Source: Thermodesulfobacteriota bacterium (GTDB lineage Bacteria; Desulfobacterota; Desulfarculia; JACQYL01). From it: a stretch of DNA of 64,000 nt. The position numbers were made by a program, and so were the translations under genes. Within the stretch, counting starts at the first letter, position 1; each line of letters starts with the position of its first letter. The stretch lies in assembly GCA_963675595.2 (NCBI GenBank), contig CAXXLZ010000002.1, positions 1,632,001 through 1,696,000 on the forward strand. Direction: 5' to 3'. Below the pieces are notes generated by a model, which did no database searches, was not told where the DNA came from, and worked only from the letters and a program-made list of their open reading frames with translations. Of this stretch, positions 15,773 to 28,842 are shown one piece after another.

Positions 15773-16020
15773 GACCTGAAACCGAGGCTTCGGGGACCTC
15801 GTTCCCCGGAGCCGCAAGGCAAGTCCTTGTTTTCCAGACGGTCGATGGTTCTCGCTTGTGCTTCGCATCAAGACATCAAGGGAGATTTTTGATTCCGGGC
15901 AACACGCTCGTCTGTTTGGACGGATTATACCAGTAGGGACGGTGATGGCGCGCTCTTGTCCGCAGGAAATATCGATGACCAACGCATGGCCCGGATCGTT
16001 GCCTCAACTGGGCAAGTCCG

Positions 16021-16038
16021 CTCGACAGGTTTAAATAC
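16021..16038 (+). promoter_or_regulatory. Archaeal-type BRE-TATA-like motif
   Basis: CTCGACAGGTTTAAATAC; TATA starts at 16030, 30 nt before ATG 16060. Confidence 0.4.
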
Positions 16039-16215
16039 AGGAAGCGCGTAATATGCAGCATGGAAAGGTATTCATTGGATCCCGAGCCTTCGCCCACGAT
16101 ATCGGACTGGTGGCGGGCCAGGGAGAGAAGCAAGGACGGGTTTGTAATGTTTTTCTAAAACACGGAAGCCGGCATTGGGAACTGCAAAATCAGTCATCGT
16201 CATAGAAACACAACT

Positions 16216-16491
16216 ATGGAGAATTCAAAACAACAGGAGGAAGTCATGGGAAGGAATCGTGGGACAGAGTGCGAAGAGCAACTCGAAACAATGGACGATG
16301 AATTGTTGGAGGATAGCGAAGCCCAATACGAACGAAAGTCCGATCCTTTCTTCTGGTTGGCCGCAAATATCGAGAAAGTCTTCAGTCGACCCTCGGAGAC
16401 GGAATCGGTCACCGAAGACCAGTCCGATTCTGCGGTCGAGACTACCGGAAAGCCGGGGTCCAAGAAGAAGAAAAAGAAGAAGAGGATTTGA
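16216..16491 (+). CDS. Hypothetical acidic protein with poly-Lys C-terminus
   Basis: 91 aa ORF, plausible composition, no recognised domain. Confidence 0.45.
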   Translation: MENSKQQEEVMGRNRGTECEEQLETMDDELLEDSEAQYERKSDPFFWLAANIEKVFSRPSETESVTEDQSDSAVETTGKPGSKKKKKKKRI

Positions 16492-16699
16492 CTCGAAGAG
16501 ATGGGGATTGCCTTTTGGGGCTATGCGAGCCCCTCCTCATTGTGAGATCGCCGGAGTGAAATCAGCGTGGGACCTTGGCTTCAAGAGTCCTCGTCTGGGG
16601 ATAGTTGTATTGACAAGACCCACTTTAACGGACAGCGGCTCCTGATTCTCGAACTTCTGTCTTCGTTCGCTCCGGAAAATTAAATAAGTTGCTGAAACC

Positions 16700-17914: not shown

Positions 17915-17937
17915 CTGTTCAGACTATGGAATGATCT

Positions 17938-19797
17938 TTATTGCCTTGGCCGGGTTGTACATCGTCCGTCTCGGTCCCTCTTCGTCAGCAGCTTTTCAGC
18001 AAGAATTAGGGCGTCCACCGGCCAGAAACATTCCGGGCGGGGCTGATGCACGTCGGGAAGCCCCTCAATCGGACGGCATGCGAGGATCCGGTCTGTCCAT
18101 CTGGCAGGAACCGCTTCCCGGCCGTACACCGCACCGAGAAGAGCGCCGCATATGGCTGCGTTGGTATCCGTGTCCCCTCCTCGCATCACTGTGTCTACAA
18201 CGCCTTCCTCAAAGTTCGGAGCATGGAGGAGCTGCCAAAGGGCGTTCCAGAAAGCTATTAATACCCATCCTTGTTTGTGCACATAGCCTGGAGGCGGATC
18301 CGATGCCGCTCTTGTGATGGCGTCCATGAGCGAGTCGTCCACATCCGTATCCCTGGCTCGGTCGAGCACAAAGTTATAGACCTCTTTGGGTTTGGAGCCG
18401 GTACGGATTGTATGGGCAATGGCCACGGTGAATAAGCCATTGGCTTGCAGGCAAACCAGATGAGGATGGGTCAGTGCCGCATCCCGCCACGCCCACTCCC
18501 ACACCTGACTCAGATCAAAATTTGTCCCGAAAATACCCAACGGGCTCACGCGCATCAAGGCGCCATTGGCCTGACTATCCGGATTTGGTAGGCCGCGAAG
18601 ACCTCCGGCAACGGTCATGCCGCAGTCGAAAGGCCCCGAGTGAAGCCAGAACACATAGGCTTTACGGGCTTCCTCGGCATCGTATGTAACCTGTGTAATG
18701 AGGGTCCGAGCCAGCAGCGGCGCCATCTCGGAATCGTCCGTGGGCTGTCCGGCAATGGTGTTAAAGGTTCCTCCGTCTGCCAATTCCCTTAGCCCTTTGG
18801 GATATCTAACCTTTATCCATTCAGGGCGTTTGAACTCCACCAGACTGCCCAGCGCGTCCCCTGCCAGTTGGCCCAACAGGCACCCTTGTGCCCGGGAAAG
18901 CAGGCCGGCATCCGGGGATTCGCCGCTCGATTTCGGCCAAGTAAGCGAATAGGGACTGCGCGTTTCAGGACGATTGAAAACCTCGCTCCAATCTTGTTTC
19001 TCCAGATGATCCACGAGGGCCTTGCAGCCTCCAAACACACGGAAGCTGAAACTGAAGCTCAAATCCGCCGAATATCGAACCGGCCGTCCCCTCTCATCGT
19101 ACAAATCCCCTCCTGCCCCCATCAGAATCGCGTGTCCGCCGGCCAAGTCCCAAAACTCCGGACTATTGAGCGACACCGCCGCGTCGCCTTCACCCGCCGC
19201 CACGAGCGCCAGACGGTAGGCAATACTTGGCATTGCCCTATAACGCATGGGATAAACCAGTCGCGCATTCGCCTCCGCATTGTGGTCCGCATGGTGCGAC
19301 AAGAGAACCGTGCAGTTCGAGCTCGGTTCATCCGGCCAGGTTCTTACCACCATCCGGCCGTTTCGCAAGACCGGCCCGCCTTTTGTCCAGGCAATAAGAT
19401 CGCCGTTATCATCTGGAAAATTGTACGCATACACCACGCCCAACACAGGCTTGCTCTTTTCCAACAGAGCTATGGAGACCGCGGCACCCCTAAAACCCGA
19501 CATAAAAGCGCTTGTGCCATCGTTGGGGTCCACCACCCAATATCGTTCCTCTCCACTGCTACATATCCGCGCACGCCCCAATTCTTCTCCGAAAAAACCG
19601 TCTTCCGGAAACGTCCTATCTATCCGCCTTAGGATGAGCTCTTCCGCGATTTGATCCAGTTCCGCATGATGACTCGTCCCACGTGGACCGCCTTGGCGAT
19701 TGAATTCATCACGGAGGACAGAACCTGCAGAAAGTGCGGCTTCAGTGGCAGTGGTGAGTTCGGGGTCGTAAGACGCGTGGGAAGTCATAGTGTTCAC
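17938..19797 (-). CDS. Inositol-monophosphatase-family domain fused to ADP-ribosylglycohydrolase
   Basis: N-terminal GEE..WVVDPNDGT, WDLAGG; C-terminal GQLAGDALG, GQPTDDSEM, ANGALMR, GGDTDTNAAICGALLGA; start may be ATG 19788. Confidence 0.9.
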   Translation of the reverse strand: MNTMTSHASYDPELTTATEAALSAGSVLRDEFNRQGGPRGTSHHAELDQIAEELILRRIDRTFPEDGFFGEELGRARICSSGEERYWVVDPNDGTSAFMSGFRGAAVSIALLEKSKPVLGVVYAYNFPDDNGDLIAWTKGGPVLRNGRMVVRTWPDEPSSNCTVLLSHHADHNAEANARLVYPMRYRAMPSIAYRLALVAAGEGDAAVSLNSPEFWDLAGGHAILMGAGGDLYDERGRPVRYSADLSFSFSFRVFGGCKALVDHLEKQDWSEVFNRPETRSPYSLTWPKSSGESPDAGLLSRAQGCLLGQLAGDALGSLVEFKRPEWIKVRYPKGLRELADGGTFNTIAGQPTDDSEMAPLLARTLITQVTYDAEEARKAYVFWLHSGPFDCGMTVAGGLRGLPNPDSQANGALMRVSPLGIFGTNFDLSQVWEWAWRDAALTHPHLVCLQANGLFTVAIAHTIRTGSKPKEVYNFVLDRARDTDVDDSLMDAITRAASDPPPGYVHKQGWVLIAFWNALWQLLHAPNFEEGVVDTVMRGGDTDTNAAICGALLGAVYGREAVPARWTDRILACRPIEGLPDVHQPRPECFWPVDALILAEKLLTKRDRDGRCTTRPRQ

Positions 19798-20529
19798 TTT
19801 GACAGTGTGGAAATGCTACTCGATTCTAACCTATCACAGAGGTCCGACCTACTTGGAAGTAGCAAGATGGATGGTTGGCGACGAGACATGGTAGGCCCTC
19901 GGTCACATAATCTTCCCGGCCATCTGCCGGAGTCGGCCGTCCCGGTCCATCAGAAAGATTCCGTTCGACATACATTGCCCCAATGGAAAGTCAGTTCGTT
20001 TTCCATTCGCTTGGAAGTCATGTTATATGTTGCGCCCTTTCCGATCAGGCGGGCGGCGCCCCAGTAAGACTGTCAAGAATGACGCCATCGATCCAACCAA
20101 CTGAAAACAAGACAGTTTCTTTCACACTCTGTCTCGGATTGCTTAGAAAAAAGCTGGCAATTCGTATGCTACACCGCTTGCTGCATTGCTAAAAAACTGA
20201 GCATCCTTTTTCTGACTGTTCCAAAGATGCATATTAGAATGGGATGTTTTCTTCAAGTTCCGCAATCCTGATTATTTAGTTGAATTGCTGTATTCATCAA
20301 AATAATTTCCAGTTAACAGCCAAATTGTACAGATTATGGATCCATGTCAAGATTCTTGAGTTTTTTATTGTATTCTCGAAAGCAGACTTGGGGGGTCCAG
20401 TTTCGTATCACGCCTCCAACGGCTAAATCCGCAAGTCTCCTTCACAACCTGAAAAAAAGGGCACCAATGCCTCACTCTGGGATGAAAAAAGGTTTGTTCT
20501 CCTGGATAAGAATAGGAAAAAGAGATCGT

Positions 20530-20973
20530 TCAAGCCGTTAACTCTTCTACTTCTACCGAGTCATTTGTCGGGAGACGAGCCTCTGAGACTTCGTAGCGCT
20601 CACTTCCCTTGTACTTCGGACGCATGCGCCGGAATTCCGCTGTCACAGGGACAAGTCGTATCAGGACGGTCTTGTTCTTGAGCGGTGAATGTTTCTTTAG
20701 CTCAGAGAGAAGGCTCACCTGACTGATCGTCCAGGTCATTTCTTTTCCCTCGTATGAAACGTCAAACCAGAGATCGTGGGCGTTACTGTCGAAATTGTTC
20801 TCGGTCTCTTTCCGAGGACCGTCGCTCAAGAAAGTCACTTCGAAACCTTCACGTTTCATTTGTTCTGTCGGTTTGAAAAACGGTGGCAGATCGCCACTGT
20901 TTCCCATATTATCCCAGCTTGGGCAGCCGGTATGGTGTGTGCCTGATGTGGCATATTTTTGTCCATTTGCCAT
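20530..20973 (-). CDS. Hypothetical protein, possible OB-fold ssDNA-binding protein, divergent from cdc6
   Basis: SD GGAGGTG; beta-rich FEVTFLSDGP..LWFDVSYEGKEMTWTISQVSLL; acidic C-terminus; fold is a guess. Confidence 0.6.
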   Translation of the reverse strand: MANGQKYATSGTHHTGCPSWDNMGNSGDLPPFFKPTEQMKREGFEVTFLSDGPRKETENNFDSNAHDLWFDVSYEGKEMTWTISQVSLLSELKKHSPLKNKTVLIRLVPVTAEFRRMRPKYKGSERYEVSEARLPTNDSVEVEELTA

Positions 20974-21159
20974 GGTTTGCACCTCCGAATCGGGTTTTTT
21001 CGATTCAAAGATTGAGAATAGTAGCTTTTATTTATAATTCTTTCTATTATTGTTCAAATTTACCAAAAGGCCATAGAGTGTGGGAAGATTTCTTGTGGAA
21101 ATCAAAAAATATTTTCGCAGGCATGCTCTACTTACACTTTGTCGCTACTGCAAAGTGGT

Positions 21160-21244
21160 TTAGTTTATAAAGTTTTCTTGAAATATTAATCTTTTATATT
21201 ATATTATATAATTTCTATATAGAAATAAATAATAATAAGGAAAA
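21160..21244. other. Very AT-rich tract, candidate DNA-unwinding element
   Basis: TTTTATATTATATTATATAATTTCTATATAGAAATAAATAATAATAAGG in a ~55% GC background; adjacent to the ORB-like boxes once the IS is removed. Confidence 0.55.
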
Positions 21245-22794
21245 CTAGAGTTTAGAGCCATGCGGGGCAGCCAAGTTTGTATAGAAGAGCATAGTTCTCC
21301 AAGACGGGTTGAATACCGTTGACGTAAGGCTTTGAGATGATTGACTGAACACGGATATCAGGCAGCGCGCCCCAAGTCTTCCGGAGAATCGGTGAATTCC
21401 GGTTGGAATTTTTTGGATTTCCGGTTCCACATGGCTCGCACGTTTAAGTTGCCGAAAAGACGACCGATGGCTGCGGCCATCCAGCCGGCGGTGGCGGGCC
21501 TGTTCTTTCTCCAAGGGATTGGAAACATCGTATAGGCCGCGTTGGGACCCAGGCAGAGCGCCAAGAGCCGTGGCAAGCCGTAGGCCAGGCACAAGATCAT
21601 GCTCCATCGAGCCAATGTCTGCCGTGTCTGCTGCCAAGCATTTTTCAGTCCGAACAGGTGCTTGATCTCGTTGAACATGGGCTCGGTCCACCATCGTCGT
21701 GCATAGCGTGTAATCACTTCCGCGCCGTCCATGTCGGGATCGGTACTGATCAGAAGATGCCAATCGGACCAAGAGGGGTTGTCGGACATAAACCGGCACC
21801 ACACGATCTTGCACAACCGGCCGTCCAGGAAGCGGACTTTGGCTTTGGTTTGGTAGAACTGGAAAACTCGTTCCGAGCCGTAGGCAAAGAGGGTTTTCTC
21901 CACCGGACGACAGAATCGTCCGATGTTTTCCAACGTGAGTTTTTCCCCATACTTTCTGGGTCTGCCCCGTTTCTTCCGAGGCGGATTGTCCGGAGGCAAA
22001 AACAGGGCGGTATCTTTGCGGACTTGGCCGATGACCGTCACACCATCGCGAATCAGGGGAACCACCAGGGAGCTTTTCATATACCAGGCATCGAGCAGCA
22101 GAATAATGAGAAAGCGATCCGGCAGCCAAGTCATGAGAACGGACATCAAGAGCCGCGCCGCGTCCAGTTTGGTGGTGTTCCCTTTTTTGCGGATGAGCCG
22201 AAACAAGAGGGGAAACGCGGCTACCCGGCCCTTGTGGCGGCAGATGACAGCCAGAGAAACCCGAAGCTGTCCCCACAGGAATTTGGGGCGGTTGGGCCGG
22301 TGCGCGTGATCGTAATGCCAACCGGCGCAGGGAGCTTTCTTGGACGATCTGGGCAAAGGGAAGTCGTCTATGGCGAACTCGATGGATCGGTTTGGAATCC
22401 GTTTCAGGATCAGGCGCATCCATTGCCGGGCTAGCGCAAGCCATTGGAATCGGCCCTTTTCGATGGCCTTGTAATAGGCGGTCCAGGACAACTGGGGCCG
22501 AACGGCCAGAAGCGCGGAAGAAATATGGCCGCCGCGGCAGACCATACATCCCATCAGGAGTTCCAGAAGAGTCGGAGCTATTCTGCACGGAACGGCCTGA
22601 AATAGAAAGGAAATCCACTGCGATAGGAGCATAAGTGCTTGAGCCGTCGAATCCATTGGTTGACCCCCAAGGAAAGGTTTCTTTCCTTAAAGGGCAGCCA
22701 AAGGCGGCCGCGCATCCGCGCGGCAATGTCAAGTACTTTGTTGTCTTTATTCGCATTTTTCCTATACCAAGGGTCGCCAGACTCTAAACTCTAG
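21245..22794 (-). mobile_element. IS701/IS4-like insertion sequence (1550 bp)
   Basis: IRs CTAGAGTTTAGAG / CTCTAAACTCTAG; 9-bp target duplication TAAGGAAAA (21236-21244, 22795-22803). Confidence 0.9.
21358..22656 (-). CDS. DDE transposase (DDE_5/IS701-like)
   Basis: FAIDD..PRSSKKAP, LLDAWY, LLISTD..VITRYARRWWTEPMFNEIK. Confidence 0.9.
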   Translation of the reverse strand: MDSTAQALMLLSQWISFLFQAVPCRIAPTLLELLMGCMVCRGGHISSALLAVRPQLSWTAYYKAIEKGRFQWLALARQWMRLILKRIPNRSIEFAIDDFPLPRSSKKAPCAGWHYDHAHRPNRPKFLWGQLRVSLAVICRHKGRVAAFPLLFRLIRKKGNTTKLDAARLLMSVLMTWLPDRFLIILLLDAWYMKSSLVVPLIRDGVTVIGQVRKDTALFLPPDNPPRKKRGRPRKYGEKLTLENIGRFCRPVEKTLFAYGSERVFQFYQTKAKVRFLDGRLCKIVWCRFMSDNPSWSDWHLLISTDPDMDGAEVITRYARRWWTEPMFNEIKHLFGLKNAWQQTRQTLARWSMILCLAYGLPRLLALCLGPNAAYTMFPIPWRKNRPATAGWMAAAIGRLFGNLNVRAMWNRKSKKFQPEFTDSPEDLGRAA

Positions 22795-22828
22795 TAAGGA
22801 AAAGAAAACATCACCAAAAACTGAAACT

Positions 22829-22850
22829 GAAAGTTCCACCGGAAACTTTC
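22829..22850. promoter_or_regulatory. ORB-like (origin recognition box) palindrome
   Basis: GAAAGTTCCACCGGAAACTTTC; core GTTCCACCGGAAAC resembles the archaeal ORB core GTTCCAGTGGAAAC; ~90 bp upstream of cdc6. Confidence 0.6.
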
Positions 22851-22896
22851 CCTCTCTCAAAATCCGGTTCACTTTCAAGTGACAACAGGAATTTGC

Positions 22897-22914
22897 ACCG
22901 AAAACTATTTATAG
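22897..22914 (+). promoter_or_regulatory. Archaeal-type BRE-TATA-like motif for cdc6
   Basis: ACCGAAAACTATTTATAG; TATA at 22906; TTG start at 22935, ATG at 22941; no SD. Confidence 0.55.
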
Positions 22915-22934
22915 ATGTCCTGTAGAAGAATCGC

Positions 22935-24209
22935 TTGAAAATGTCCGGTGGAGATCATTCAGAAGCTTCCCTGCAATTCATTCGCACATTGCATGACTCA
23001 CAGAAGAATCATCGCCTTATTTTGAACCCCAACTATTTGGACGACGAGAAGTTGCCTGAGGAAGAGCGGACTTCGGTTCTGAAGGAGATTTTTGATCGGA
23101 ATATCCGGGAAGAGCAGCTGAAACGCATCGTCTGTCATCTGACTCCGATCCTGGACGGCGATCATCCGAGTTCATTACTGGTCTTCGGTCCTACGGGTTC
23201 AGGGAAAACGGTTTCCCTCATTCACGTCCTTTCGACGTTTCAGGAATATTGCCGAACTCAGTCCGTCGGGTTCCAGTATAGATACGTGGACTTGACCTCC
23301 CCCAGGTCTTCTTTCGGAGCGTTGAACGAGCTTGCGAGAGCCCTCAATGAATCGATTCGCACCTACAGGAAAGGCATTCCCATCGATCAGATGCAGGAAC
23401 GGATCATCGAAGAGCTGAACCGATTCCAGGGGTTCTTGTGCCTCTTGATTGATGAGGCGGATAATATCAAGCCCAATGCGGATGAATTTATCACCTTCCT
23501 TGGAAAGACCCTTCCAAGAAAGATTCCCTGCCGGTTGGTTCTCATCATGGTCACGAACAAACTGAACTGGGACAAGATGCTGGACCCGCGGATTCTGAGT
23601 GTTCTCAAGAAGACGGACATGCTCTTTGAACCCTATAACGCCTTGGATTTGATCGAAATCCTGAATCTTCGAGTGGAAAAGGCTTTGGATAAGTCAAAGG
23701 TGGACGAGGCCGCTGTCCGAAAGATCGCGGCGTTGGCGTCGCGAGAAACCGGTGATGCGAGAAAGGCGGTTGAACTTCTCTCAAAGTCGGCCAAAGTCGC
23801 ACAGGAAACCGGCGGCAGGCTGTCCGAAGAAATCGTGGATCTGGCTGAGCACAGATTGGAAATGGACAAAACAGAGGAAATGGTTCGGGCTCTCGCTCCG
23901 CAGCAGAAACTTGCGCTTCTTTCCTGCTACGATCTTCTGGCCAAGACTTCGAAACGGGTCACTACGGGCGAGGCCTATGATCGATACGCCAATTTCTGCG
24001 AGTTGGAACGGGTCAGGCCGCTCACACAACGAAGGTTCTCGGACATTATCGGTTCCCTTGACCTCTACGGACTGATCAACGCCCGGCTGATATCACGCGG
24101 CAGGTATGGCCAGACAAGAGAAATCTCAAGGTCGCTTCCCAAGGAAACCCTCAGCCGGTTCTTATCAAGAGAAGGATTCGGTTCCGGGTCGTTCGGCGGT
24201 CTTCATTGA
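22935..24209 (+). CDS. cdc6: Archaeal-type Orc1/Cdc6 replication initiator (AAA+ plus winged helix)
   Basis: REEQL, LVFGPTGSGKT, LLIDEAD, LDPRILS, FEPYNALDLIEILNLRV, GDARKAVELL, TTGEAYDRY..FC..LTQRRFSDII.SLDLYGLI...SRGRYGQTREI: the full archaeal Cdc6/Orc1 signature set. Confidence 0.92.
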   Translation: MKMSGGDHSEASLQFIRTLHDSQKNHRLILNPNYLDDEKLPEEERTSVLKEIFDRNIREEQLKRIVCHLTPILDGDHPSSLLVFGPTGSGKTVSLIHVLSTFQEYCRTQSVGFQYRYVDLTSPRSSFGALNELARALNESIRTYRKGIPIDQMQERIIEELNRFQGFLCLLIDEADNIKPNADEFITFLGKTLPRKIPCRLVLIMVTNKLNWDKMLDPRILSVLKKTDMLFEPYNALDLIEILNLRVEKALDKSKVDEAAVRKIAALASRETGDARKAVELLSKSAKVAQETGGRLSEEIVDLAEHRLEMDKTEEMVRALAPQQKLALLSCYDLLAKTSKRVTTGEAYDRYANFCELERVRPLTQRRFSDIIGSLDLYGLINARLISRGRYGQTREISRSLPKETLSRFLSREGFGSGSFGGLH

Positions 24210-24224
24210 CGGACCGTTGGGCTG

Positions 24225-24371
24225 CTATCCGCCTATCTTCACCCGTGTTGTGAACTTCCGGTGGCACTTGGTGCACATCCGGAGTCTGACTTTTCCCTGG
24301 GCAAGGGGCCTGTATCCTTTCCAGTGGCTTTGGGTTGCGCCGCAGTACGGGCATTTGTAGGGTCTTGGCAT
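24225..24371 (-). CDS. Small Zn-ribbon protein (48 aa)
   Basis: MPRPYKCPYCGATQSHWKGYR...RMCTKCHRKFT; SD GAGGTGA; convergent with cdc6. Confidence 0.7.
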   Translation of the reverse strand: MPRPYKCPYCGATQSHWKGYRPLAQGKVRLRMCTKCHRKFTTRVKIGG

Positions 24372-24404
24372 CGGTATCACCTCGGGACTTGGTAAGGCCC
24401 TGGT

Positions 24405-24422
24405 GTATATAAACTTTTCTTT
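24405..24422 (-). promoter_or_regulatory. Archaeal-type BRE-TATA-like motif (minus strand)
   Basis: AAAGAAAAGTTTATATAC; the +30 position falls at the start of the GAGGTGA SD of the Zn-ribbon gene. Confidence 0.55.
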
Positions 24423-24437
24423 CCTCTGCGGTCTTTG

Positions 24438-24455
24438 AGCGAAAGGTTTATATGA
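24438..24455 (+). promoter_or_regulatory. Archaeal-type BRE-TATA-like motif
   Basis: AGCGAAAGGTTTATATGA; TATA starts at 24447, 30 nt before the SD-less ATG at 24477. Confidence 0.6.
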
Positions 24456-24476
24456 AGGCTTTGCTTCCCAACAAAG

Positions 24477-25292
24477 ATGGAATGCGGAATACCGGAACCG
24501 GCTCACTCTGGCCAACACTCAGCAATAGTCTTGGACTTGGAAGAGCCGGAGGCGGCCGTCGGCCGGATTATCTGGGAGTTTGTCTTCGGCGTTGCTCAAT
24601 ACAAGGCGTCGGCCCGAGACTACTACTATGACGTTATGCTGGCGGATCATCCGTGTCCTGTTTGCGGCGAAAATCTGCGGATGCTTGAACCCGGTTCGGC
24701 GGCCTGTGCAAGCGGTCATGAACTCGACCCCACAGTGGTGTTTCAAAAGAGCGGCTGCTGCGGAGCAAAGCTGGTCAGGCGGTGTCTTCATTATGCGTGC
24801 GCTTCTTGTGGGAAGACCGTGCCGTCCCGGTTCTTGTTCGATGAACGGGTCTTCGACAAGGTCTATTTCCGGCAACGGATGGCGGAGTCCAGGGCCAAGA
24901 CGATAAAACGAAAAGAAATGATAAGGCTCGCCCGTCGAGAAGAGCGGTCGCGCGGGTTGACGTTACTGGAGGAACCGCAGCTTGATCGTTTGCCTGGTTT
25001 TACTGAAGCGTTGGCAGGCTTCATCGGCTTTGATGTGGGAGTTTGGGACGAGGAGTTCTCCCTGACTGGGAATCTTCCTGGGCTGTCCCGGTACAGACGC
25101 CATATCCTGGATTCAGTGAACAGGTATCGACAAATCATGTTTTCCAGGATCGATCTCCTGATCGATGATGCCCGAAGAGATCGGGCGATGCGCTTTGTCG
25201 CTCTGATCTTTCTGCTTCAGGATGGGGAAGTGCGGGTCACACAATACAGTTCGGATATTGAAATCGAGCCGCCCTACAATGAAATTGACTGA
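24477..25292 (+). CDS. Zn-finger protein with ScpA/kleisin-like C-terminal winged helix
   Basis: CPVCG..C..GH, CCG..CASCG; C-terminal RFVALIFLLQDGEVRVTQYSSDIEI resembles the ScpA C-terminal motif. Confidence 0.65.
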   Translation: MECGIPEPAHSGQHSAIVLDLEEPEAAVGRIIWEFVFGVAQYKASARDYYYDVMLADHPCPVCGENLRMLEPGSAACASGHELDPTVVFQKSGCCGAKLVRRCLHYACASCGKTVPSRFLFDERVFDKVYFRQRMAESRAKTIKRKEMIRLARREERSRGLTLLEEPQLDRLPGFTEALAGFIGFDVGVWDEEFSLTGNLPGLSRYRRHILDSVNRYRQIMFSRIDLLIDDARRDRAMRFVALIFLLQDGEVRVTQYSSDIEIEPPYNEID

Positions 25293-25647
25293 AAAGGACA
25301 AGGAGTTCATTGAAAAACTGAAAATGCTGATCGACGATAGTGATCTCAAGATTGAGCTGACGGAAAACGGCCTGAAGCGGTTCGTGTTGCGCAGAAATTA
25401 CGGCGACAAAATCGAACGGATTTTTGGATTAACGCGCCAGGGAATCAGGTGGCGGTTCCAGCGGCTGCTGGGAGATATCTACGTTTCTGCGTACACCACG
25501 ATCTATTGGGTTGAGAGCCTGTTAGGGACAGAACTCAGAACGATGGCGCTCGAGATCGCAAAGCAAAGGGTCGAACTTCGAAAGAAAGCCCTGAAAAGGA
25601 CTGGATGCAATAAGTTGGCCTTCGTCCAGCGCCGGCACAAGAGGTGA
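25279..25647 (+). CDS. Hypothetical protein, possible HTH
   Basis: MKLTEKDKEFIEKLK...IFGLTRQGIRWRFQRL; overlaps the upstream stop. Confidence 0.7.
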   Translation: MKLTEKDKEFIEKLKMLIDDSDLKIELTENGLKRFVLRRNYGDKIERIFGLTRQGIRWRFQRLLGDIYVSAYTTIYWVESLLGTELRTMALEIAKQRVELRKKALKRTGCNKLAFVQRRHKR

Positions 25648-25653
25648 TGCCTG

Positions 25654-26067
25654 ATCGTCAGCACAAAAATCGAACTCAGTCATAACAAGATCGCGAGAAT
25701 CCGGGACCTGGATGAACTCGCTGCTATCCTATTCCCCGGCAACAAGAATCATCAGAGAGTTTTTCTCGCAATCTTCATCGAACTCAAGTACGCTGAGCAT
25801 GAATTTCTAGACACTCTTCAGCCGTTGTGCGACAAATACGGTTTTTCACCGAGAATCCTCGAAACCGTCCGAAGCAAGATGCGGCGTATGGGGCTCATCG
25901 ATCACGTTTCCCGATTCAACAAGCGGCACGGCTATCGGGAAGGATGGGTTTTTTCCAGCAGGTTTGGGAAGTCATTGGAACAGCTTGCCGGCATCGCGGC
26001 GTCGGCCAGAGAGCGTAAAGGCGTGATGCAGGAGAAGAAGGACCGGGGGTTGTTTCGCCTCATGTAA
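25654..26067 (+). CDS. Putative winged-helix protein with non-canonical (ATC) or mutated start
   Basis: Frame is open from 25648; SD GAGGTG lies 7 nt before ATC; (I)VSTKIELSHNKIARIRDLDELAAILFPGNKNHQRVFLAIFIELKY...KMRRMGLIDHVSRFN; the ORF track caught only 25825-26067. Confidence 0.65.
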   Translation: MVSTKIELSHNKIARIRDLDELAAILFPGNKNHQRVFLAIFIELKYAEHEFLDTLQPLCDKYGFSPRILETVRSKMRRMGLIDHVSRFNKRHGYREGWVFSSRFGKSLEQLAGIAASARERKGVMQEKKDRGLFRLM

Positions 26068-26204
26068 TTGATACTTTTGGGAAAAACTTCCGCATAGGGG
26101 GTCTTATCAGATGTCTTATGAGGCATGAGCCGCTGAATGGATTTCATAGGTTGGAGTATCCTGCCTTCGAATAGACCATTACCCTCTAATTCCAGAAAAG
26201 CGAT

Positions 26205-28778
26205 ATGAGAATCACCTTCGACCCTGCTTTTGATCAAGGTTCCTGGCCCGGCCCAATCGCACAAGGCCACGCCGCATCCGGTGAAATCTGGTTAGGGCCC
26301 TCCGGCCTTTTGAGCATCCTTGAGACCATGACCGGTCTGGCCGGCCCCACCCTGCCTCCCGCAGTCAGGGCTGCCGAATTGGTTTCGGAAGTCCGAAGCA
26401 TCAAGGGCTTCTGGAAAGACTCCGCTCAGGTGGACCCTTTCGGGACCGCAAGGAGGCTCTTGGAGTGGCGCGATTTTCTTTGGACACAAGGTTGGCGCGG
26501 CCAACCGGTCAGCCTGCGGCTGGAGCAATTGGCGGAGGTTACCTACAAGGCCTCGCCCGGTTTTCCCGATCGGTTTCTTGAGGTAGCAGGAACCATGCAG
26601 GGTGCCGCCAATGTGATTGAGGCACTCACACTTCTCGTTCCGGTTGGTCGTCTGAATCCCGCATTGCGGACAGCAGTGCAGGCTCTTGAGCGGACGGGAA
26701 CCAAAGTCATCGAGAAGACCTTGGAACCGGCCTCACCAAAGGGCGACTTGGGCGCATGCAGAACAGTGCCCTTCAGACCCATAGGGGATGGATCCCTTCA
26801 ATTGCTGCGGCCCGCCACTCACAGCATGGCCGCCCACGAACTGGCCGCTTGGCTCTCCAATCTTGAGTCACTGGAACGTACAGTCATTATCGGTCCCGAC
26901 AGCGTGCTTGACGAGGCACTCCATCGATTTGATCTGCCCACGACGGGCGCAGGCATACCAGCCTCCGATCATGCCTTGCTTCAGATTCTGCCCCTGACTC
27001 TGGCCATGGCCTGGGATCCGCCTGATCCTCAGAGGGCTCTCGAACTCCTGATGTTGCCCAACAGCCCCGTTCCCAAAGGGATCGGTCGCAGGTTGGCTCA
27101 TGCGCTGCAGGATTATCCCGCGGTGGGATCGGATGCCTGGAATGAAGCACTGGAAGAAGGTCTGAACCAGTTCTCAGACAAGAAAGATCGGAAGCGCTTG
27201 AAAGACCGAATGGATGCCATCTTTGCGAGGCGCATCCAAAGCCGGAATTATCCGGTGACCGAGATCAAGGCTCGGATCGATCTTCTCCGATCCTGGGCCA
27301 AAGGCAGGATGGGGGAGGATGCGTCGGAACGTGCATGGCAGGCTCTGATCGCTCAGTTGGAGAACTGCATGCGCATTGCCGAGCTATCGGGCCTTTCTCA
27401 CTTCACTGCTCCACAGATACGCCGAATGCTTTATGAGATCAACGAGGCGGCGGGCTCTTTTCCTCTTTACGAGGCCCAAGCAGGTTTGGAAACCGTTGGG
27501 GCGCCGGAGTGCATCGCTGAACAAGCGCAGAATGTGATTTGGTGGTCGTTCAATCGGGGCGCCGCGCCGGTCATAGCTTCCGACATGCTTACCGCCAAGG
27601 AACGTTCAGGGCTTGAGCAAGTAGGCGTTGTACTCCCTCGCCCGGGTGATGAAGCCGTGTGGGCCGCGGAGAGATGGCAACGGCCTCTCATGCTGGCGGG
27701 TTCAAATCTGATTCTCGTCTGTGCTCGGCGAGGCCCCGACGGTGAAGAGCAATATCCGCACCCATTGTGGGACGAGCTTGCCGGTCGGGTCGAGGAATCC
27801 ACGGGTTTGAAGGAATTGGAGCGTGAATTCCTGATTTCCCATAACGGGCTTACCAGGACCATTCGGCCGATCAGGAGCCTTCCCGAGCCCGTATGGGAAT
27901 GGGGCGTTATTGCGGGTGCCGTGGCCAAAAGACCGAAGGAGTCACCCAACAGTCTGTCGAGTTTGATTTCCTGCCCGTTCAGTTGGGTCGTTCGCTATTT
28001 GGGCAACCTATATGGCGGGGCTACGGCCACTTTGGATTCGCCCGAAAAACTGCAAGGCCGGCTCATACACGAGATACTCACCCGCGTCCTTTCCAATCCC
28101 GGCCAAACCCCCGAAGAAGCTGCCGATGATGCAACCCTGCGTTTTGGTTCGGAAGGACCGCTCATGGCCGCTCAACTCTTCTTGCCCGGCTACGAAGATA
28201 TTCGAGCGGAGGTGAAAATGGCTCTCCGCACAGCGGCTCATCGAGTATTTCGTTTGATCAAGGAAGGAAGATTCACGGTACGAGCCGTCGAACAGACCTA
28301 TGCTACGAAATCCCGTTCCCTGGGAATAGAGATTGAAGGCCGACCCGACTTGGTACTGAAGAACCCGGACGCAATCGTCGATTTCAAGCGCGGCGGAGTC
28401 AATTATCGTAAGGAAGAGCTGGCCGGCGGCACAAGCCTCCAATTAGCCGTATACGGTCATTTGATTCGGAAGAATGAAAAGACGACCTTTCCTCCTGTTG
28501 CCTATTTGATGCTCAAATCCGGTCAGGTGATCACGGTGGACCCCAAGGCCTTTCCGGACGCACGGATCATTGGAGGTCCTTCACCCGAAGAGACTTGGAA
28601 GGGGACTCAGGAGTCCTTTAAGCGGATTTGGGATGAAATGAAGGCTGGCAAAGTACGGGCATCGGGAAACGATCCCGACGGCCCTCCAAAGAGTCAACTC
28701 GACGATGGACGACTTTTTCTGAAGCCCTGCGAATTCTGCGACTTCGCCGTTCTTTGTGGTCGGGCCTTCAGCGAATAG
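26205..28778 (+). CDS. AddB-like protein (inactive helicase scaffold + PD-(D/E)XK nuclease)
   Basis: SPNSL...CPFSW, GRLIHEIL, EGRPDLV..IVDFKRG, LQLAVY, CEFCDFAVLCG. Confidence 0.85.
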   Translation: MRITFDPAFDQGSWPGPIAQGHAASGEIWLGPSGLLSILETMTGLAGPTLPPAVRAAELVSEVRSIKGFWKDSAQVDPFGTARRLLEWRDFLWTQGWRGQPVSLRLEQLAEVTYKASPGFPDRFLEVAGTMQGAANVIEALTLLVPVGRLNPALRTAVQALERTGTKVIEKTLEPASPKGDLGACRTVPFRPIGDGSLQLLRPATHSMAAHELAAWLSNLESLERTVIIGPDSVLDEALHRFDLPTTGAGIPASDHALLQILPLTLAMAWDPPDPQRALELLMLPNSPVPKGIGRRLAHALQDYPAVGSDAWNEALEEGLNQFSDKKDRKRLKDRMDAIFARRIQSRNYPVTEIKARIDLLRSWAKGRMGEDASERAWQALIAQLENCMRIAELSGLSHFTAPQIRRMLYEINEAAGSFPLYEAQAGLETVGAPECIAEQAQNVIWWSFNRGAAPVIASDMLTAKERSGLEQVGVVLPRPGDEAVWAAERWQRPLMLAGSNLILVCARRGPDGEEQYPHPLWDELAGRVEESTGLKELEREFLISHNGLTRTIRPIRSLPEPVWEWGVIAGAVAKRPKESPNSLSSLISCPFSWVVRYLGNLYGGATATLDSPEKLQGRLIHEILTRVLSNPGQTPEEAADDATLRFGSEGPLMAAQLFLPGYEDIRAEVKMALRTAAHRVFRLIKEGRFTVRAVEQTYATKSRSLGIEIEGRPDLVLKNPDAIVDFKRGGVNYRKEELAGGTSLQLAVYGHLIRKNEKTTFPPVAYLMLKSGQVITVDPKAFPDARIIGGPSPEETWKGTQESFKRIWDEMKAGKVRASGNDPDGPPKSQLDDGRLFLKPCEFCDFAVLCGRAFSE

Positions 28779-28842
28779 GGGCGGTGAAAATTTCTTCCTT
28801 TCCCGGCTAAGCTTCAAAGAGCGAGCCCTTTATAAGGTACTG

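What the first reader, a model, noticed from the sequence alone, without database searches (positions are those of the whole stretch)
20530..26067. Archaeal-type Orc1/Cdc6 replication module inside an otherwise bacterial-looking mobile island
Seen: 22935-24209 carries the full archaeal Cdc6/Orc1 motif set (AAA+ plus C-terminal wHTH ending SRGRYG.TR). It has an origin-like intergenic region upstream, a divergent possible SSB, and coupled Zn-finger/ScpA-like/wHTH genes downstream. The surrounding cargo has bacterial features: AAGGAG SDs, hairpin-U terminators, IS3, type III R-M, WYL. Established: bacteria initiate replication with DnaA; Orc1/Cdc6 with an adjacent ORB origin is the archaeal arrangement. 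Inference: a mobile replicon that uses an ORC-type initiator in a bacterium, or that came from or moves between domains. No MCM or DnaB is encoded in the window, so its helicase partner is unknown. Scattered bacterial Orc1 homologs may already be reported, so novelty needs a literature check.
Basis: partly seen in the sequence, partly recalled or inferred. Interest (0 to 1): 0.92.

Follow-up and report, generated by a model that had tools for sequence, protein, structure and literature searches.

The report
Archaeal-type replication initiator in bacterial island
A sulfate-reducer-type bacterium carries four copies of a mobile island whose likely replication module is an archaeal-style Orc1/Cdc6 protein with matching archaeal-style origin boxes, which raises the open question of how such an initiator could start replication in a cell that has no MCM helicase.

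Summary
Confirmed: window 22935-24209 encodes a full-length Orc1/Cdc6-family protein (TIGR02928 256 bits, cut-off 181; end-to-end match to Sulfolobus Orc1-1). The host is a bacterium: a bacterial 16S gene and two dnaA genes lie on the same 4.7-Mb contig, and the named DnaA relatives are Thermodesulfobacteriota. The gene sits in a ~27-kb backbone present four times in the genome. Each copy lies in a larger island whose related tyrosine integrase abuts a tRNA gene. The whole window lies inside one such island (~93 kb). Upstream of orc1, two inverted boxes (TTCCAYNRGAAAYYTWCYC) flank a 76-90% A+T spacer. This motif occurs 7 times in the genome, always upstream of an orc1 copy. Its core recurred upstream of orc1 in 14 of 16 metagenome loci fetched afterwards (20 hits against 0 elsewhere) and resembles the archaeal mini-ORB. 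In this copy an IS701 element splits the spacer. Orc1 is under strong purifying selection (dN/dS 0.007-0.04). Most likely this is the replication module of an integrative, plasmid-like element; replication itself and the helicase partner are not shown. The SSB call is not confirmed and the ScpA-like call is weakly supported. The family is large in Thermodesulfobacteriota but rare per genome (3 of 401). No paper describing it was found.

The parts
1..64000 (.). The whole window lies inside one tRNA-Arg-integrated island of about 93 kb. The island runs from about C2:1,618,673 (window about -13,300) to the tRNA at C2:1,712,093-1,712,168 (window about 80,100). Its integrase is at C2:1,710,817-1,712,070, outside the window.
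   Evidence: The integrase abuts tRNA-Arg(ACG). A 49-bp perfect direct repeat of the tRNA 3' part lies 9,974 bp left of the shared backbone. The integrase has Pfam Phage_integrase at 79.7 bits.
2571..15770 (+). Left part of the ~27-kb backbone shared by the four genomic copies. It holds a 161-aa ORF, a PD-(D/E)XK nuclease (3036-3806), a HerA/DUF87 ATPase (3803-5749), a RadC-like region, an AAA ATPase (10265-11212 plus 13750-14232, split by a group II intron), DUF1257 (14229-14600) and DUF3150 (14900-15772). An IS4-like insertion at 7935-9769 is in this copy only.
   Evidence: blastn against the three other copies gives 89-97% identity. Pfam results are; Rfam finds the group II intron.
15771..20592 (.). 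Copy-specific cargo inside the backbone: a 156-aa ORF, an ankyrin-repeat protein (16700-17914, - strand) and an inositol-monophosphatase/ADP-ribosylglycohydrolase fusion (17938-19797, - strand).
   Evidence: This stretch has no blastn counterpart in copies A, B or C.
20530..20982 (-). 150-aa protein of unknown family, divergent from orc1.
   Evidence: It is 72-73% identical to the ORF at the same place in copies A, B and C, and a 49% identical homologue lies next to orc1 in L058. No family matched. The AF2 model has pLDDT 69 and no Foldseek hit at E 1e-3 or better.
21082..21100 (-). ORB-like box L. On the - strand it reads TTCCACAAGAAATCTTCCC.
   Evidence: the DNA search found 2 matches in the window and 0 in 100 shuffles. 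This is one of 7 matches in the 6.79-Mb genome, all upstream of orc1 copies.
21101..21244 (.). Left part of the A+T-rich spacer, the candidate unwinding element. Positions 21165-21244 are 90% A+T. It ends with the target duplication TAAGGAAAA.
   Evidence: Composition and duplication are and the sequence. It is homologous to the A+T-rich stretch of the uninterrupted copy A.
21245..22794 (-). IS701-family insertion sequence (transposase ORF 21358-22656) inserted into the spacer. It is present at this site only in this copy.
   Evidence: NCBIfam NF049999 scores 426 bits against a cut-off of 170. About 20 near-identical copies lie elsewhere in the genome.
22795..22833 (.). Right part of the A+T-rich spacer (69% A+T). 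It begins with the second copy of TAAGGAAAA.
22834..22852 (+). ORB-like box R, TTCCACCGGAAACTTTCCC, about 100 bp upstream of orc1.
   Evidence: A + strand box sits at the same place, about -100 to -131, in 9 of the 16 metagenome loci examined.
22935..24209 (+). orc1/cdc6 gene (424 aa from the TTG; an ATG lies two codons further in).
   Evidence: Family and structure matches are. There are four copies at 98-100% aa identity, with dN/dS 0.007-0.042 at dS 0.22-0.31.
24225..24380 (-). Small (~50 aa) Zn-ribbon protein. The listed 97-aa ORF 24225-24518 is conserved only over its last ~50 residues.
   Evidence: Pfam Zn_ribbon_NrdR scores 26.8 bits, just under its 27.2 cut-off. ORFs of 47-52 aa at 67-96% identity lie in copies A and B and in L013, L014, L027 and L029; the L022 ORF is 76 aa. 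It is also found in L055, L056, L060, L062 and L069.
24477..25292 (+). 271-aa protein with 8 invariant cysteines (probably two Zn ribbons), a long helix and a C-terminal winged helix resembling the kleisin (ScpA/Scc1) C-terminal domain.
   Evidence: Alignment A3. The AF2 model has mean pLDDT 61.7, with the C-terminal 65 residues at about 80-89. Foldseek top hits are 1w1w_E, 6qpq_B, 5h66_C (target TM 0.80) and 4i99_C, at E 7e-3 to 4e-2. No family or plasmid match was found.
25279..25647 (+). ~122-aa conserved protein of unknown family. The conserved start MKLTEK is residue 20 of the listed ORF 25222-25647.
   Evidence: Alignment A4 has 41 invariant columns. dN/dS is 0.11-0.17. No family or plasmid match was found.
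In this copy a 1-base length difference puts the GTG start used in copy A out of frame. The frame stays open from the stop codon of the preceding gene. The shared backbone ends at 26055, inside the last codons.
   Evidence: alignment A2; boundary alignment
26056..64000 (.). Variable cargo of the island. It holds an AddB-like PD-(D/E)XK protein with a UvrD/AddA-like helicase (26205-31968), an IS3-type element (32880-34474), UDG, two WYL-WCX regulators, ARPP-1, GGACT, a double-AAA ATPase, PLD-like and SNF2-like proteins, an AAA_13/SMC_N ATPase and a type III restriction subunit.
   Evidence: Pfam results are. This stretch is not shared with the islands around copies A, B and C.

Best explanation
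The region is the replication module of an integrative, plasmid-like genomic island of a Thermodesulfobacteriota-type bacterium.

Proposed mechanism:
1. A tyrosine integrase at the far end of the island excises it from a tRNA gene through 48-49-bp direct repeats. This step is inferred from the anatomy.
2. On the circular form, the element's own Orc1/Cdc6 AAA+ protein binds two inverted ORB-like boxes that flank an A+T-rich spacer about 100-270 bp upstream of its gene. That the sites exist, and are conserved in place and orientation, is shown. Binding is inferred.
3. Orc1 opens the spacer and recruits a helicase. The genome has no MCM, so this must be a bacterial helicase. The host's single DnaB is the obvious candidate.
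4. Recruitment could go through the clade-specific, highly conserved N-terminal ~57 residues of Orc1, or through the often-linked small proteins (Zn-ribbon, 271-aa Zn-ribbon/winged-helix, ~122-aa and ~137-aa proteins). Steps 3 and 4 are inferred and nothing supports a particular partner.

In the window's own copy an IS701 element has landed in the spacer between the two boxes. This copy's origin is therefore probably disabled, although its orc1 reading frame is intact. The three other copies have an uninterrupted origin region.
For: Family membership:
- TIGR02928 scores 256.5 bits against a cut-off of 181.3; Cdc6_C, the lid domain and AAA_22 are found.
- The alignment to crystallised archaeal initiators covers the full length without an insertion.
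- The Walker A, Walker B, GDAR and RGRYG.T columns are invariant across 20 homologues.

Bacterial host:
- A bacterial 16S gene (1630 bits) lies on the same contig.
- Two dnaA genes score 151 and 146 bits.
- The named DnaA relatives are Deltaproteobacteria and Thermodesulfobacteriota.

Mobile island:
- Four copies of a ~27-kb backbone exist.
- Each has a related integrase (43-77% identity; the copy A gene is split by an IS copy, so its figures are for two fragments) directly beside a different tRNA gene.
- 48-49-bp perfect repeats of the tRNA end were found for 3 of the 4 islands.

Origin:
- The 19-nt motif occurs 7 times in 6.79 Mb. All 7 lie 101-431 bp upstream of the four orc1 genes once the IS is discounted.
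- In the window there are 2 matches; 100 shuffles gave none.
- The spacer is 76% A+T overall and 90% over 80 bp, against a window mean of 47%.
- In loci from other genomes the 12-nt core gave 12 hits in 7,152 bp upstream against 4 in 137,535 bp elsewhere, in 10 of 15 loci; two of these loci are probably the same contig.
- In 16 metagenome loci fetched after the motif was fixed, it gave 20 hits in 8,241 bp upstream against 0 in 100,886 bp, in 14 of 16 loci. The usual pattern is a + strand box at -100 to -131 and a - strand box at -200 to -298.
- The same core lies upstream of orc1 in 8 of 20 archaeal loci. It shares the conserved TTCC and GAA of the Pyrococcus ORB and mini-ORB (passages of PMC1904270).

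Selection: Orc1 dN/dS is 0.007-0.042 at dS 0.22-0.31 among the four copies.

Linked genes: the 271-aa, ~122-aa and ~137-aa genes lie beside orc1 in 4 of 11 genome loci and in 6 of 19 metagenome loci.

Distribution fits a mobile element: 3 of 401 sampled genomes of the phylum carry it, with 2-4 copies where present.
Against: - No replication was observed and no extrachromosomal record carries a close relative. All 429 PLSDB records with a match are below 60% identity, and the 40 listed are archaeal. Phage records gave only 5 haloarchaeal viruses. An IMG/VR scan found none.
- The three linked proteins have no match in PLSDB.
- There is no MCM in the genome, and no helicase or primase in the conserved backbone apart from a HerA-like ATPase.
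- The linked genes are missing next to orc1 in about half of the loci that have enough flank. The ~122-aa protein was not found anywhere in 2 of 5 orc1-bearing genomes.
- Two inverted boxes in an A+T-rich region upstream of a gene also fit an autoregulated promoter.
- 2 of 16 metagenome loci and 5 of 15 genome loci lacked the core motif in the 500 bp searched.
- The box extension (CTTCCCAC) differs from the G-rich extension seen in the archaeal loci.
Confidence: 0.58

Rival explanations
1. Orc1 here is a sequence-specific DNA-binding regulator or maintenance factor of the island, not an initiator. It could be an autorepressor or switch, like the Orc1-2 paralogue that controls the DNA-damage response in Sulfolobales. 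The boxes would then be its operators in its own promoter region.
For: - The boxes lie in the 100-300 bp directly upstream of orc1, where a promoter must also lie.
- Orc1/Cdc6 paralogues with regulatory roles are on record: passages of PMC11791011 cite Sun et al. 2018, and the abstract of PMC12490963 appeared in the listing.
- There is no MCM in the genome.
- No extrachromosomal relatives were found.
- Orc1 occurs without the linked genes in some genomes.
Against: - The best PDB matches are the origin-binding initiators Orc1-1 and ORC1 (180 and 178 bits), ahead of Orc1-3 (116 bits).
- The nearest archaeal relatives examined are the near-universal, mostly single-copy Orc1 of a DPANN phylum: 59 of 61 genomes have a match.
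- The layout of inverted boxes around a 90% A+T stretch matches archaeal origins.
- The island needs some replication function if it is to persist after excision, and no other initiator was seen in the backbone.
Confidence: 0.24
2. Orc1 is the sensor or targeting ATPase of an anti-invader defence system. This would be of the kind described for bacterial Orc/Cdc6-family ATPases coupled to HerA/FtsK ATPases and restriction-type nucleases.
For: - Passages of PMC10853773 describe mobile neighbourhoods that combine an Orc/CDC6 ATPase, an active and an inactive REase, HerA/FtsK and a wHTH.
- The same backbone carries a PD-(D/E)XK nuclease and a HerA/DUF87 ATPase. These also lie within about 7 kb of orc1 in L017 and L055.
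- The island cargo is rich in defence-type genes.
Against: - Those systems have an inactive REase inserted between the AAA+ core and the wHTH. This protein aligns to archaeal Orc1 over residues 58-410 with no insertion.
- The nuclease-HerA pair ends about 17 kb from orc1 in the window and is not in its operon.
- PADLOC gives only P-loop-level matches for Orc1 (best E 7.6e-5).
- Conserved cognate boxes next to the gene are not expected for a defence sensor.
Confidence: 0.08
3. Artefact or relic. Either the contig is archaeal or chimeric, or the gene is a decaying remnant of an old transfer with no present function.
For: The window copy has an IS in the putative origin and an out-of-frame start for the last gene.
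Against: - The module occurs four times on two large contigs of a 98%-complete genome in 3 contigs.
- Bacterial 16S and dnaA genes lie on the same contig.
- Public contigs of runs from one study cover the stretch.
- dN/dS of 0.007-0.042 rules out neutral decay of orc1 over the time the copies diverged.
- Homologues lie in complete chromosomes of Desulfosarcina variabilis and other Thermodesulfobacteriota.
Confidence: 0.02

Closest known systems
Archaeal chromosomal origins: Orc1/Cdc6 (e.g. S. solfataricus Orc1-1, A. pernix ORC1, Pyrococcus Cdc6/Orc1) with ORB/mini-ORB boxes next to the orc1 gene
   Same: The domain set is the same (AAA+, lid, C-terminal winged helix) and the alignment is end to end. 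Inverted boxes with a TTCC...GAA core flank an A+T-rich stretch directly upstream of the gene.
   Different: The host is a bacterium without MCM. The locus is an integrated mobile island, not a chromosome origin. The protein has a conserved extra N-terminal ~57 residues; the PDB matches and many of the archaeal-range matches begin at residue 56-58. The box extension is CTTCCCAC instead of the G-rich string seen in archaeal loci. Identity to the archaeal proteins examined is at most 38%.
Archaeal plasmids, integrative elements and haloarchaeal viruses that carry their own orc1/cdc6
   Same: A mobile element brings its own Orc1-type protein. tblastn finds such genes on 429 plasmid records (the 40 listed are archaeal) and in 5 haloarchaeal virus records.
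   Different: Those hosts supply MCM. Here the host is bacterial, and identity to these records is 23-32% in the rows listed.
Bacterial Orc/Cdc6 - HerA/FtsK - REase conflict neighbourhoods (PMC10853773)
   Same: These are bacterial, mobile neighbourhoods with an Orc/Cdc6-clade ATPase that has a C-terminal wHTH. A HerA-like ATPase and a PD-(D/E)XK nuclease are present in the same island.
   Different: There is no inactive-REase insertion in the protein, no operon with HerA, and conserved ORB-like boxes are present.
Bacterial tRNA-integrated genomic islands / integrative plasmid-like elements with a tyrosine integrase
   Same: The integrase abuts a tRNA gene, direct repeats of the tRNA 3' end mark the far border, and cargo is variable and defence-rich.
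   Different: The candidate replication gene is of the archaeal Orc1 type, not a bacterial Rep, DnaA-like or primase-helicase type. No VirD4-type coupling protein was found in the genome.
Sulfolobales Orc1-2, an Orc1/Cdc6 paralogue acting as a DNA-damage-response regulator
   Same: It is an Orc1/Cdc6-family protein that binds specific DNA motifs for a purpose other than initiation (passages of PMC11791011).
   Different: No evidence here links the gene to damage-response genes. The best PDB matches are initiator paralogues.

Membership tests
Orc1/Cdc6 family (TIGR02928) | Score above the curated family cut-off | tested here: met
   256.5 bits against a cut-off of 181.3. The narrower archaeal equivalogs NF001625, NF001623 and NF001626 and the subfamily model NF001624 are all below their cut-offs (best 248.5 against 501), so the protein belongs to none of those subgroups.
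Orc1/Cdc6 family (TIGR02928) | AAA+ core with Walker A, Walker B and sensor/arginine motifs, plus a lid domain | tested here: met
   GPTGSGKT at 85, IDEAD at 172 and GDARKA at 273. These columns are invariant in 20 homologues. Cdc6_lid scores 46.9 bits. The motif names are recalled general knowledge of AAA+ proteins.
Orc1/Cdc6 family (TIGR02928) | C-terminal winged-helix DNA-binding domain | tested here: met
   Cdc6_C scores 86.1 bits over residues 316-405. RGRYGQT aligns with RGRYGKT of 2qby_A.
Orc1/Cdc6 family (TIGR02928) | Works with the MCM helicase | tested here: not met
   No MCM-grade match exists in the 98%-complete genome. The best PF00493 hit scores 35.6 bits over part of the model, and the control search also rings in bacteria. 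This bears on mechanism, not on sequence-family membership.
Orc1/Cdc6 family (TIGR02928) | ATP-dependent binding and remodelling of origin DNA; initiation of replication | not testable with these tools
   This needs biochemistry or a replicon assay.
Archaeal-type origin (ORB boxes plus unwinding element beside orc1) | Repeated boxes with a TTCC...GAA core | tested here: met
   There are 2 boxes in the window and 0 in 100 shuffles, and 7 of 7 genomic matches lie at orc1 copies. The core is conserved upstream of orc1 in 14 of 16 independent metagenome loci. The core motifs are as in PMC1904270.
Archaeal-type origin (ORB boxes plus unwinding element beside orc1) | Inverted boxes flanking an A+T-rich stretch | tested here: met
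   The boxes are on opposite strands, and the spacer without the IS is 174 bp at 76% A+T, with 90% over 80 bp. Other loci show the same pattern.
Archaeal-type origin (ORB boxes plus unwinding element beside orc1) | Long ORB form with a G-rich extension | tested here: not met
   The bacterial boxes continue as CTTCCCAC or CTACTCAC. The archaeal loci continue as GAAGGGGT-like strings.
Archaeal-type origin (ORB boxes plus unwinding element beside orc1) | Mapped initiation site | not testable with these tools
   Only assembled contigs of public runs were available, not raw reads.
tRNA-integrated genomic island with tyrosine integrase | Tyrosine integrase next to a tRNA gene at one border | tested here: met
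   All four islands have one. The integrase of island A is split by an IS701 copy.
tRNA-integrated genomic island with tyrosine integrase | Direct repeat of the tRNA 3' end at the other border | tested here: met
   Perfect repeats of 48-49 bp were found for islands W, A and C. None was found within 60 kb for island B.
tRNA-integrated genomic island with tyrosine integrase | Excision and circular form | not testable with these tools
   Contigs break at repeats longer than the assembler's word, so they cannot show it.
Orc/Cdc6-HerA-REase defence neighbourhoods (PMC10853773) | Inactive REase domain inserted between the AAA+ core and the wHTH | tested here: not met
   The alignment to archaeal Orc1 is continuous over residues 58-410 and the protein is only 424 aa long.
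Orc/Cdc6-HerA-REase defence neighbourhoods (PMC10853773) | Operon coupling with HerA/FtsK and an active REase | tested here: not met
   The PD-(D/E)XK and HerA genes lie at 3036-5749, about 17 kb from orc1, with unrelated genes between.
Integrative conjugative element | Type IV coupling protein (VirD4/TraG) | tested here: not met
   PF02534 has no match in the genome. Relaxases and VirB4 were not searched.
Kleisin (ScpA) for the 271-aa protein | C-terminal winged helix of the kleisin type | tested here: inconclusive
   The five best Foldseek hits are Scc1-C (ranks 1, 2 and 4) and ScpA-C (ranks 3 and 5), with target TM 0.61-0.80 (ScpA-C 0.72-0.80). E-values are 7e-3 to 4e-2, and the whole model has mean pLDDT 61.7.
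Kleisin (ScpA) for the 271-aa protein | Sequence-family match and an SMC partner | tested here: not met
   There is no Pfam or NCBIfam match. No SMC partner was looked for specifically.
SSB for the 150-aa protein | SSB/OB-fold family match | tested here: not met
   No family matched. Foldseek gave no hit at E 1e-3 or better, only faint OB-fold-like hits.

The most novel reading that the evidence does not exclude
A large, so far undescribed class of bacterial integrative plasmid-like elements replicates with an archaeal-type Orc1-ORB origin and loads a bacterial DnaB-type helicase. The adaptor would be new: the conserved N-terminal extension of Orc1 and/or the linked Zn-ribbon/winged-helix and small proteins. 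This would be a natural cross-domain pairing of an ORC-type initiator with a bacterial replisome.
Probability: 0.3. Interest if true: 0.9.

Novelty: new variant of a known kind. Interest (0 to 1): 0.76.

Why it matters
Orc1/Cdc6 with ORB boxes is the textbook archaeal way of marking an origin, and it works by loading MCM. Bacteria use DnaA or plasmid Rep proteins with DnaB.

Here a complete Orc1 with cognate, conserved ORB-like boxes sits on mobile islands of bacteria that lack MCM. The protein family runs to hundreds to thousands of environmental sequences: 468 proteins at E 1e-3 or better for this clade, and 2,946 at E 1e-30 or better for a search seeded with a sister-clade protein (each among 8,000 scored candidates).

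If these modules replicate, they show how an ORC-type initiator can be wired to a bacterial replisome. That bears on how initiators and helicases were matched in evolution. It would also give a new replicon type for genetics in Desulfobacterota, which have few vectors. If they do not replicate, they are a new family of sequence-specific AAA+ regulators of mobile islands. Both outcomes can be tested with a mini-replicon and a footprint.

Tried and rejected
Searches that found nothing:
- A single-protein scan of genome contigs found nothing. The alignment scan then gave 11 loci.
- A scan of viral contigs found no relative.
- PLSDB searches with the 271-aa, ~122-aa and ~137-aa proteins found no match.
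- PHROGs and PADLOC gave nothing for the accessory proteins, and only P-loop-level or clamp-loader-level hits for Orc1.
- The protein atlas gave no usable hit for the ~122-aa protein. For the conserved 392-aa integrase-side protein it gave only unnamed clusters.

Jobs without a verdict:
- Complex prediction of Orc1 with the 271-aa protein returned no answer (score 0.00). This is no evidence either way.

Public sequencing runs:
- No RNA holder is listed.
- Read laying had contigs only. A joint skipping 21235-22795 appeared in 3 runs, but with only 24-45 letters on the shorter side, at 90% likeness. The A+T-rich flank is nearly identical in copies A, B and C. I therefore take this joint to come from the other copies, not from an IS-free form of this copy.
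- Summed contig depth over the shared module is about four times that of the unique cargo. The tool states that this is no copy number, so I draw nothing from it.
- I did not test the att borders with contigs, because 48-bp repeats break such assemblies anyway.

Readings considered and dropped:
- SSB for the 150-aa ORF: rejected for lack of any family or fold match.
- Conjugative element: no VirD4 family match. Relaxases and VirB4 were not searched.
- A weak DnaB_C-like hit (24.7 bits, below cut-off) lies in island C. Its ORF has a counterpart only in island A, so it is not a general partner.

Limits of the tree and of the literature check:
The tree is FastTree only, and its only archaeal labels come from one DPANN phylum. 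The sister group of the bacterial clade is therefore not established.
- The literature check was 8 searches of the held open-access library. I read passages of PMC3914693, PMC1904270, PMC3089459, PMC10853773, PMC5701242, PMC12680538, PMC11791011 and two preprints. None describes an Orc1-ORB module in bacteria.
[quoted passage not shown] PMC10853773 refers to Supplementary Data S1. Supplements are closed, so either may list these proteins.
- PMC5701242 lists a 'Cdc6-like protein' of Desulfovibrio desulfuricans in an expression table only.

Full report
WHAT IS THERE. The finding's interval holds the following, in order:
- a 150-aa ORF on the minus strand (20530-20982);
- an IS701-family element (21245-22794; NF049999 at 426 bits against a cut-off of 170);
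- a 424-aa ORF (22935-24209);
- a small minus-strand Zn-ribbon ORF;
- three plus-strand ORFs that end at 26067.

The 424-aa protein is a complete Orc1/Cdc6 protein. TIGR02928 scores 256.5 bits against a cut-off of 181.3. Pfam finds Cdc6_C (86.1 bits), Cdc6_lid and AAA_22. It aligns over residues 58-410, without an insertion, to the crystallised initiators S. solfataricus Orc1-1 (2qby_A, E 4e-52) and A. pernix ORC1 (2v1u_A, E 3e-51). It matches Orc1-3 and Pyrobaculum Cdc6 less well. The P-loop, the DEAD-type Walker B, GDAR and the RGRYG.T wing motif are present and invariant across 20 homologues.

THE HOST IS A BACTERIUM AND THE CONTIG IS NOT CHIMERIC. The window is part of a 4.73-Mb contig of a 6.79-Mb, 98%-complete assembly in three contigs. 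The same contig carries a full-length bacterial 16S gene (1630 bits) and two dnaA genes (151 and 146 bits). The DnaA protein's named relatives are Deltaproteobacteria, Desulfatiglandales, Desulfobacteraceae and Thermodesulfobacteriota MAGs; the closest named one is 56% identical. No MCM-grade match exists, and the only real DnaB gene is on the 283-kb contig.

FOUR DIVERGED COPIES IN tRNA-INTEGRATED ISLANDS. The genome holds four orc1 genes that are 98-100% identical in protein but only 93-95% identical in DNA. dS is 0.22-0.31 and dN/dS is 0.007-0.042. The copies are therefore old and the protein is strongly constrained. The downstream genes are less constrained: 0.25-0.50 for the 271-aa gene, 0.11-0.17 for the ~122-aa gene and 0.07-0.19 for the last gene (the script stopped after these three).

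All four copies share a ~27-kb backbone. It runs from about 3.35 kb before the window start (window about -3,350) to window 26055, apart from a variable segment of a few kb (about window -2,200 to 2,400) and the copy-specific stretches noted below. Its genes are:
- a PD-(D/E)XK nuclease;
- a HerA/DUF87 ATPase;
- RadC;
- an AAA ATPase split by a group II intron;
- DUF1257;
- DUF3150;
- a variable slot;
- the 150-aa ORF;
- a pRiA4-ORF3-like gene, in copies A, B and C only;
- the orc1 module.

The backbone ends inside the last codons of the last gene.

Each copy has a related tyrosine integrase 16-53 kb beyond the orc1 module, in the same orientation. The intact integrases are 49-77% identical; the copy A gene is split, and its two fragments are 43-70% identical to the others. 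Each integrase directly abuts a different tRNA gene: Arg-ACG, Phe, Val and Arg-TCG. Perfect 48-49-bp repeats of the tRNA 3' part mark the far border for three of the four islands; none was found for island B. The window's island runs from about C2:1,618,673 to the tRNA at C2:1,712,093, about 93 kb, so the whole window is island DNA. No VirD4-type gene is present in the genome.

THE ORIGIN-LIKE REGION. In the uninterrupted copy A, the 500 bp upstream of orc1 contain a strongly A+T-rich stretch flanked by TTCC-N4-GAAA boxes. I defined the motif TTCCAYNRGAAAYYTWCYC from the four copies and the first related loci. It occurs 7 times in the whole genome. All 7 lie 101-431 bp upstream of the four orc1 genes, counting the window's second box across the IS. 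In the window it occurs twice (21082-21100 on the - strand, 22834-22852 on the + strand); none appeared in 100 shuffles.

Because the motif was derived from these sequences, I tested its 12-nt core elsewhere:
- In 15 loci from other genomes it gave 12 hits in 7,152 bp upstream of orc1 against 4 in 137,535 bp elsewhere, in 10 of 15 loci. L016 and L028 appear to be the same contig.
- In 16 metagenome loci fetched after the motif was fixed it gave 20 hits in 8,241 bp upstream against 0 in 100,886 bp, in 14 of 16 loci. The usual pattern is one + strand box at -100 to -131 and one - strand box at -200 to -298.
- As a positive control, the same core lies upstream of orc1 in 8 of 20 archaeal (DPANN-phylum) loci: 11 hits in 15,642 bp against 2 in 62,493 bp.

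The core shares the conserved TTCC and GAA of the Pyrococcus ORB and mini-ORB; the oligonucleotides printed in PMC1904270 read TTCCACTGGAA. The flanking extension differs. Bacterial boxes continue CTTCCCAC or similar, while the archaeal boxes continue with a G-rich string.

THIS COPY'S ORIGIN IS INTERRUPTED. The IS701 element sits between the two boxes, inside the A+T-rich stretch, with a 9-bp duplication TAAGGAAAA. Without it the spacer is 174 bp at 76% A+T, with 90% over 80 bp, against 47% for the window. The pRiA4-ORF3-like gene found between the 150-aa ORF and the origin in copies A, B and C is absent here. In addition, a 1-base length difference puts the GTG start of the last gene out of frame in this copy, although the frame stays open. 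The window copy is thus probably a disabled member of an otherwise intact family.

THE LINKED GENES.
- The small Zn-ribbon gene is really about 50 aa, and ORFs of 47-52 aa are conserved in most of the other loci that have it.
- The 271-aa protein has 8 invariant cysteines. Its C-terminal winged helix has kleisin C-terminal domains as best structural neighbours (Scc1-C, ScpA-C; target TM up to 0.80). The E-values are only 7e-3 to 4e-2 and the model is of moderate quality. 'ScpA-like' is therefore a weak, domain-level resemblance.
- The ~122-aa and ~137-aa proteins are well conserved but match no family, plasmid or phage profile.

The three plus-strand genes lie beside orc1 in L013, L014, L017 and L022, 4 of the 11 genome loci examined. 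They do so in 6 of the 19 metagenome loci examined: 5 of the 13 with at least 1.3 kb downstream, plus L070. They are absent next to orc1 in L018, L021, L059, L061, L064, L065, L066 and L080. The ~122-aa protein was not found anywhere in 2 of 5 orc1-bearing genomes. The link is therefore frequent but not obligatory.

The 150-aa 'SSB' has no support.

HOW WIDE AND HOW OLD.
- This clade gave 468 proteins at E 1e-3 or better among 8,000 candidates scored. After three near-identical ones, identities are 61-69%. The named ones are Thermodesulfobacteriota and strain NaphS2.
- A second clade, seeded with a 42%-identical representative, gave 2,946 proteins at E 1e-30 or better among 8,000 candidates scored. 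Its named members are again Thermodesulfobacteriota and Syntrophales.
- Named genome loci include Desulfosarcina variabilis, Desulfatiglandales, Desulfarculaceae, Desulfopila and one Hydrogenedentes MAG.
- Per genome it is rare: 3 of 401 sampled genomes of the phylum, including this one, with 2-4 copies where present.
- In a FastTree tree of 164 rows, the two bacterial clades, four intermediates and three unlabelled representatives form one side of a split with SH-like support 99. The other side holds 99 unlabelled representatives and the 20 archaeal loci.
- The archaeal proteins examined are 29-38% identical, counting each genome's best match. They are the near-universal, mostly single-copy Orc1 of their genomes: 59 of 61 genomes have a match.

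This speaks against recent cross-domain traffic. The tree is quick and poorly labelled, so it does not settle the origin of the family.

INTERPRETATION. Several observations point the same way:
- the protein is initiator-type;
- cognate boxes sit in the archaeal origin layout;
- purifying selection is strong;
- the module lies in a mobile island that would need to replicate after excision;
- no other initiator is present in the backbone.

Together these make a replication module the best reading (about 0.58). What is shown is the anatomy and its conservation. Binding, melting, excision and replication are inferred. The helicase step is open because there is no MCM. The conserved N-terminal ~57 residues are absent from the PDB matches and from many of the archaeal-range matches, which begin at residue 56-58; these residues and the linked proteins are candidates for a DnaB adaptor. 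Plasmid Rep proteins, whose winged helix has been compared with that of Orc1 (passage of the preprint 10.1101/2024.09.03.610885), show that a winged-helix initiator can work with bacterial helicases.

The main rival is an Orc1-2-like regulator with operators in its own promoter (about 0.24). A defence role of the kind described in PMC10853773 is less likely, because the defining inactive-nuclease insertion and the operon with HerA are missing. Contamination or a relic is practically excluded.

NOVELTY. Databases already name such bacterial proteins 'orc1/cdc6 family', and one expression table lists a 'Cdc6-like protein' in Desulfovibrio. In 8 searches of the held library I found no paper that describes an Orc1-ORB module on bacterial mobile elements. 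Supplements that might mention it were closed. I rate it a new variant of a known kind: the archaeal Orc1-ORB replicon in a bacterial integrative element.

Noticed in passing
window 11213-13749 (RT ORF 11798-13660; Rfam match 13660-13749): A group II intron with an RT/maturase/HNH ORF sits inside the backbone's AAA ATPase gene, at the same place in all four copies. The intron ORF is 100% identical between copies although the flanks are only ~96% identical. Copy A carries two tandem intron copies. This suggests homing or gene conversion between the copies.
   Followed up: partly
window 26200-36000: The AddB-like/UvrD-like pair and the genes beyond the IS3 element recur at 95-96% identity near the end of contig C2 (about 4,715,109-4,723,314) with no orc1 module beside them. 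The IS3-type element at 32880-34474 is absent from that second copy.
   Followed up: no
L034 and upstream (C2:1,571,115-1,618,700): A third copy of the 46-49-bp tRNA-Arg repeat lies about 47.6 kb further left, next to a different tyrosine integrase (C2:1,571,203-1,572,540; 26-30% identical to the island integrases). This suggests two islands in tandem at one tRNA-Arg site.
   Followed up: no
window 17938-19797 (- strand): A 619-aa fusion of an inositol-monophosphatase-family domain with an ADP-ribosylglycohydrolase domain lies next to a 404-aa ankyrin-repeat protein. Both are cargo specific to this copy.
   Followed up: no
L033 2995-4173 (C2:1,698,995-1,700,173), outside the window: A 392-aa protein with no family match is 90-99% identical in all four islands near the integrase. 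It has 25-26% identical homologues directly upstream of orc1 in metagenome loci L055 and L060. It is a further candidate core gene of the element.
   Followed up: partly
genome contigs C2 and C3: Two full dnaA genes lie on contig C2 (1,988,135 and 3,059,530). The only DnaB_C match above the family cut-off with full-length coverage is on the 283-kb contig C3. Whether C3 is part of the chromosome or a separate replicon was not examined.
   Followed up: no
copy A, C2:4,230,002-4,232,807: The integrase of island A is split by a copy of the same IS701 element that interrupts the origin in the window. The genome carries about 20 copies of this IS.
   Followed up: partly
window 36361-62232: The cargo is rich in defence-type genes: ARPP-1, a double GGACT protein, two WYL-WCX regulators, a 760-aa double-AAA ATPase, PLD-like and SNF2-like proteins, an AAA_13/SMC_N ATPase and a type III restriction subunit with an endonuclease domain.
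   Followed up: no
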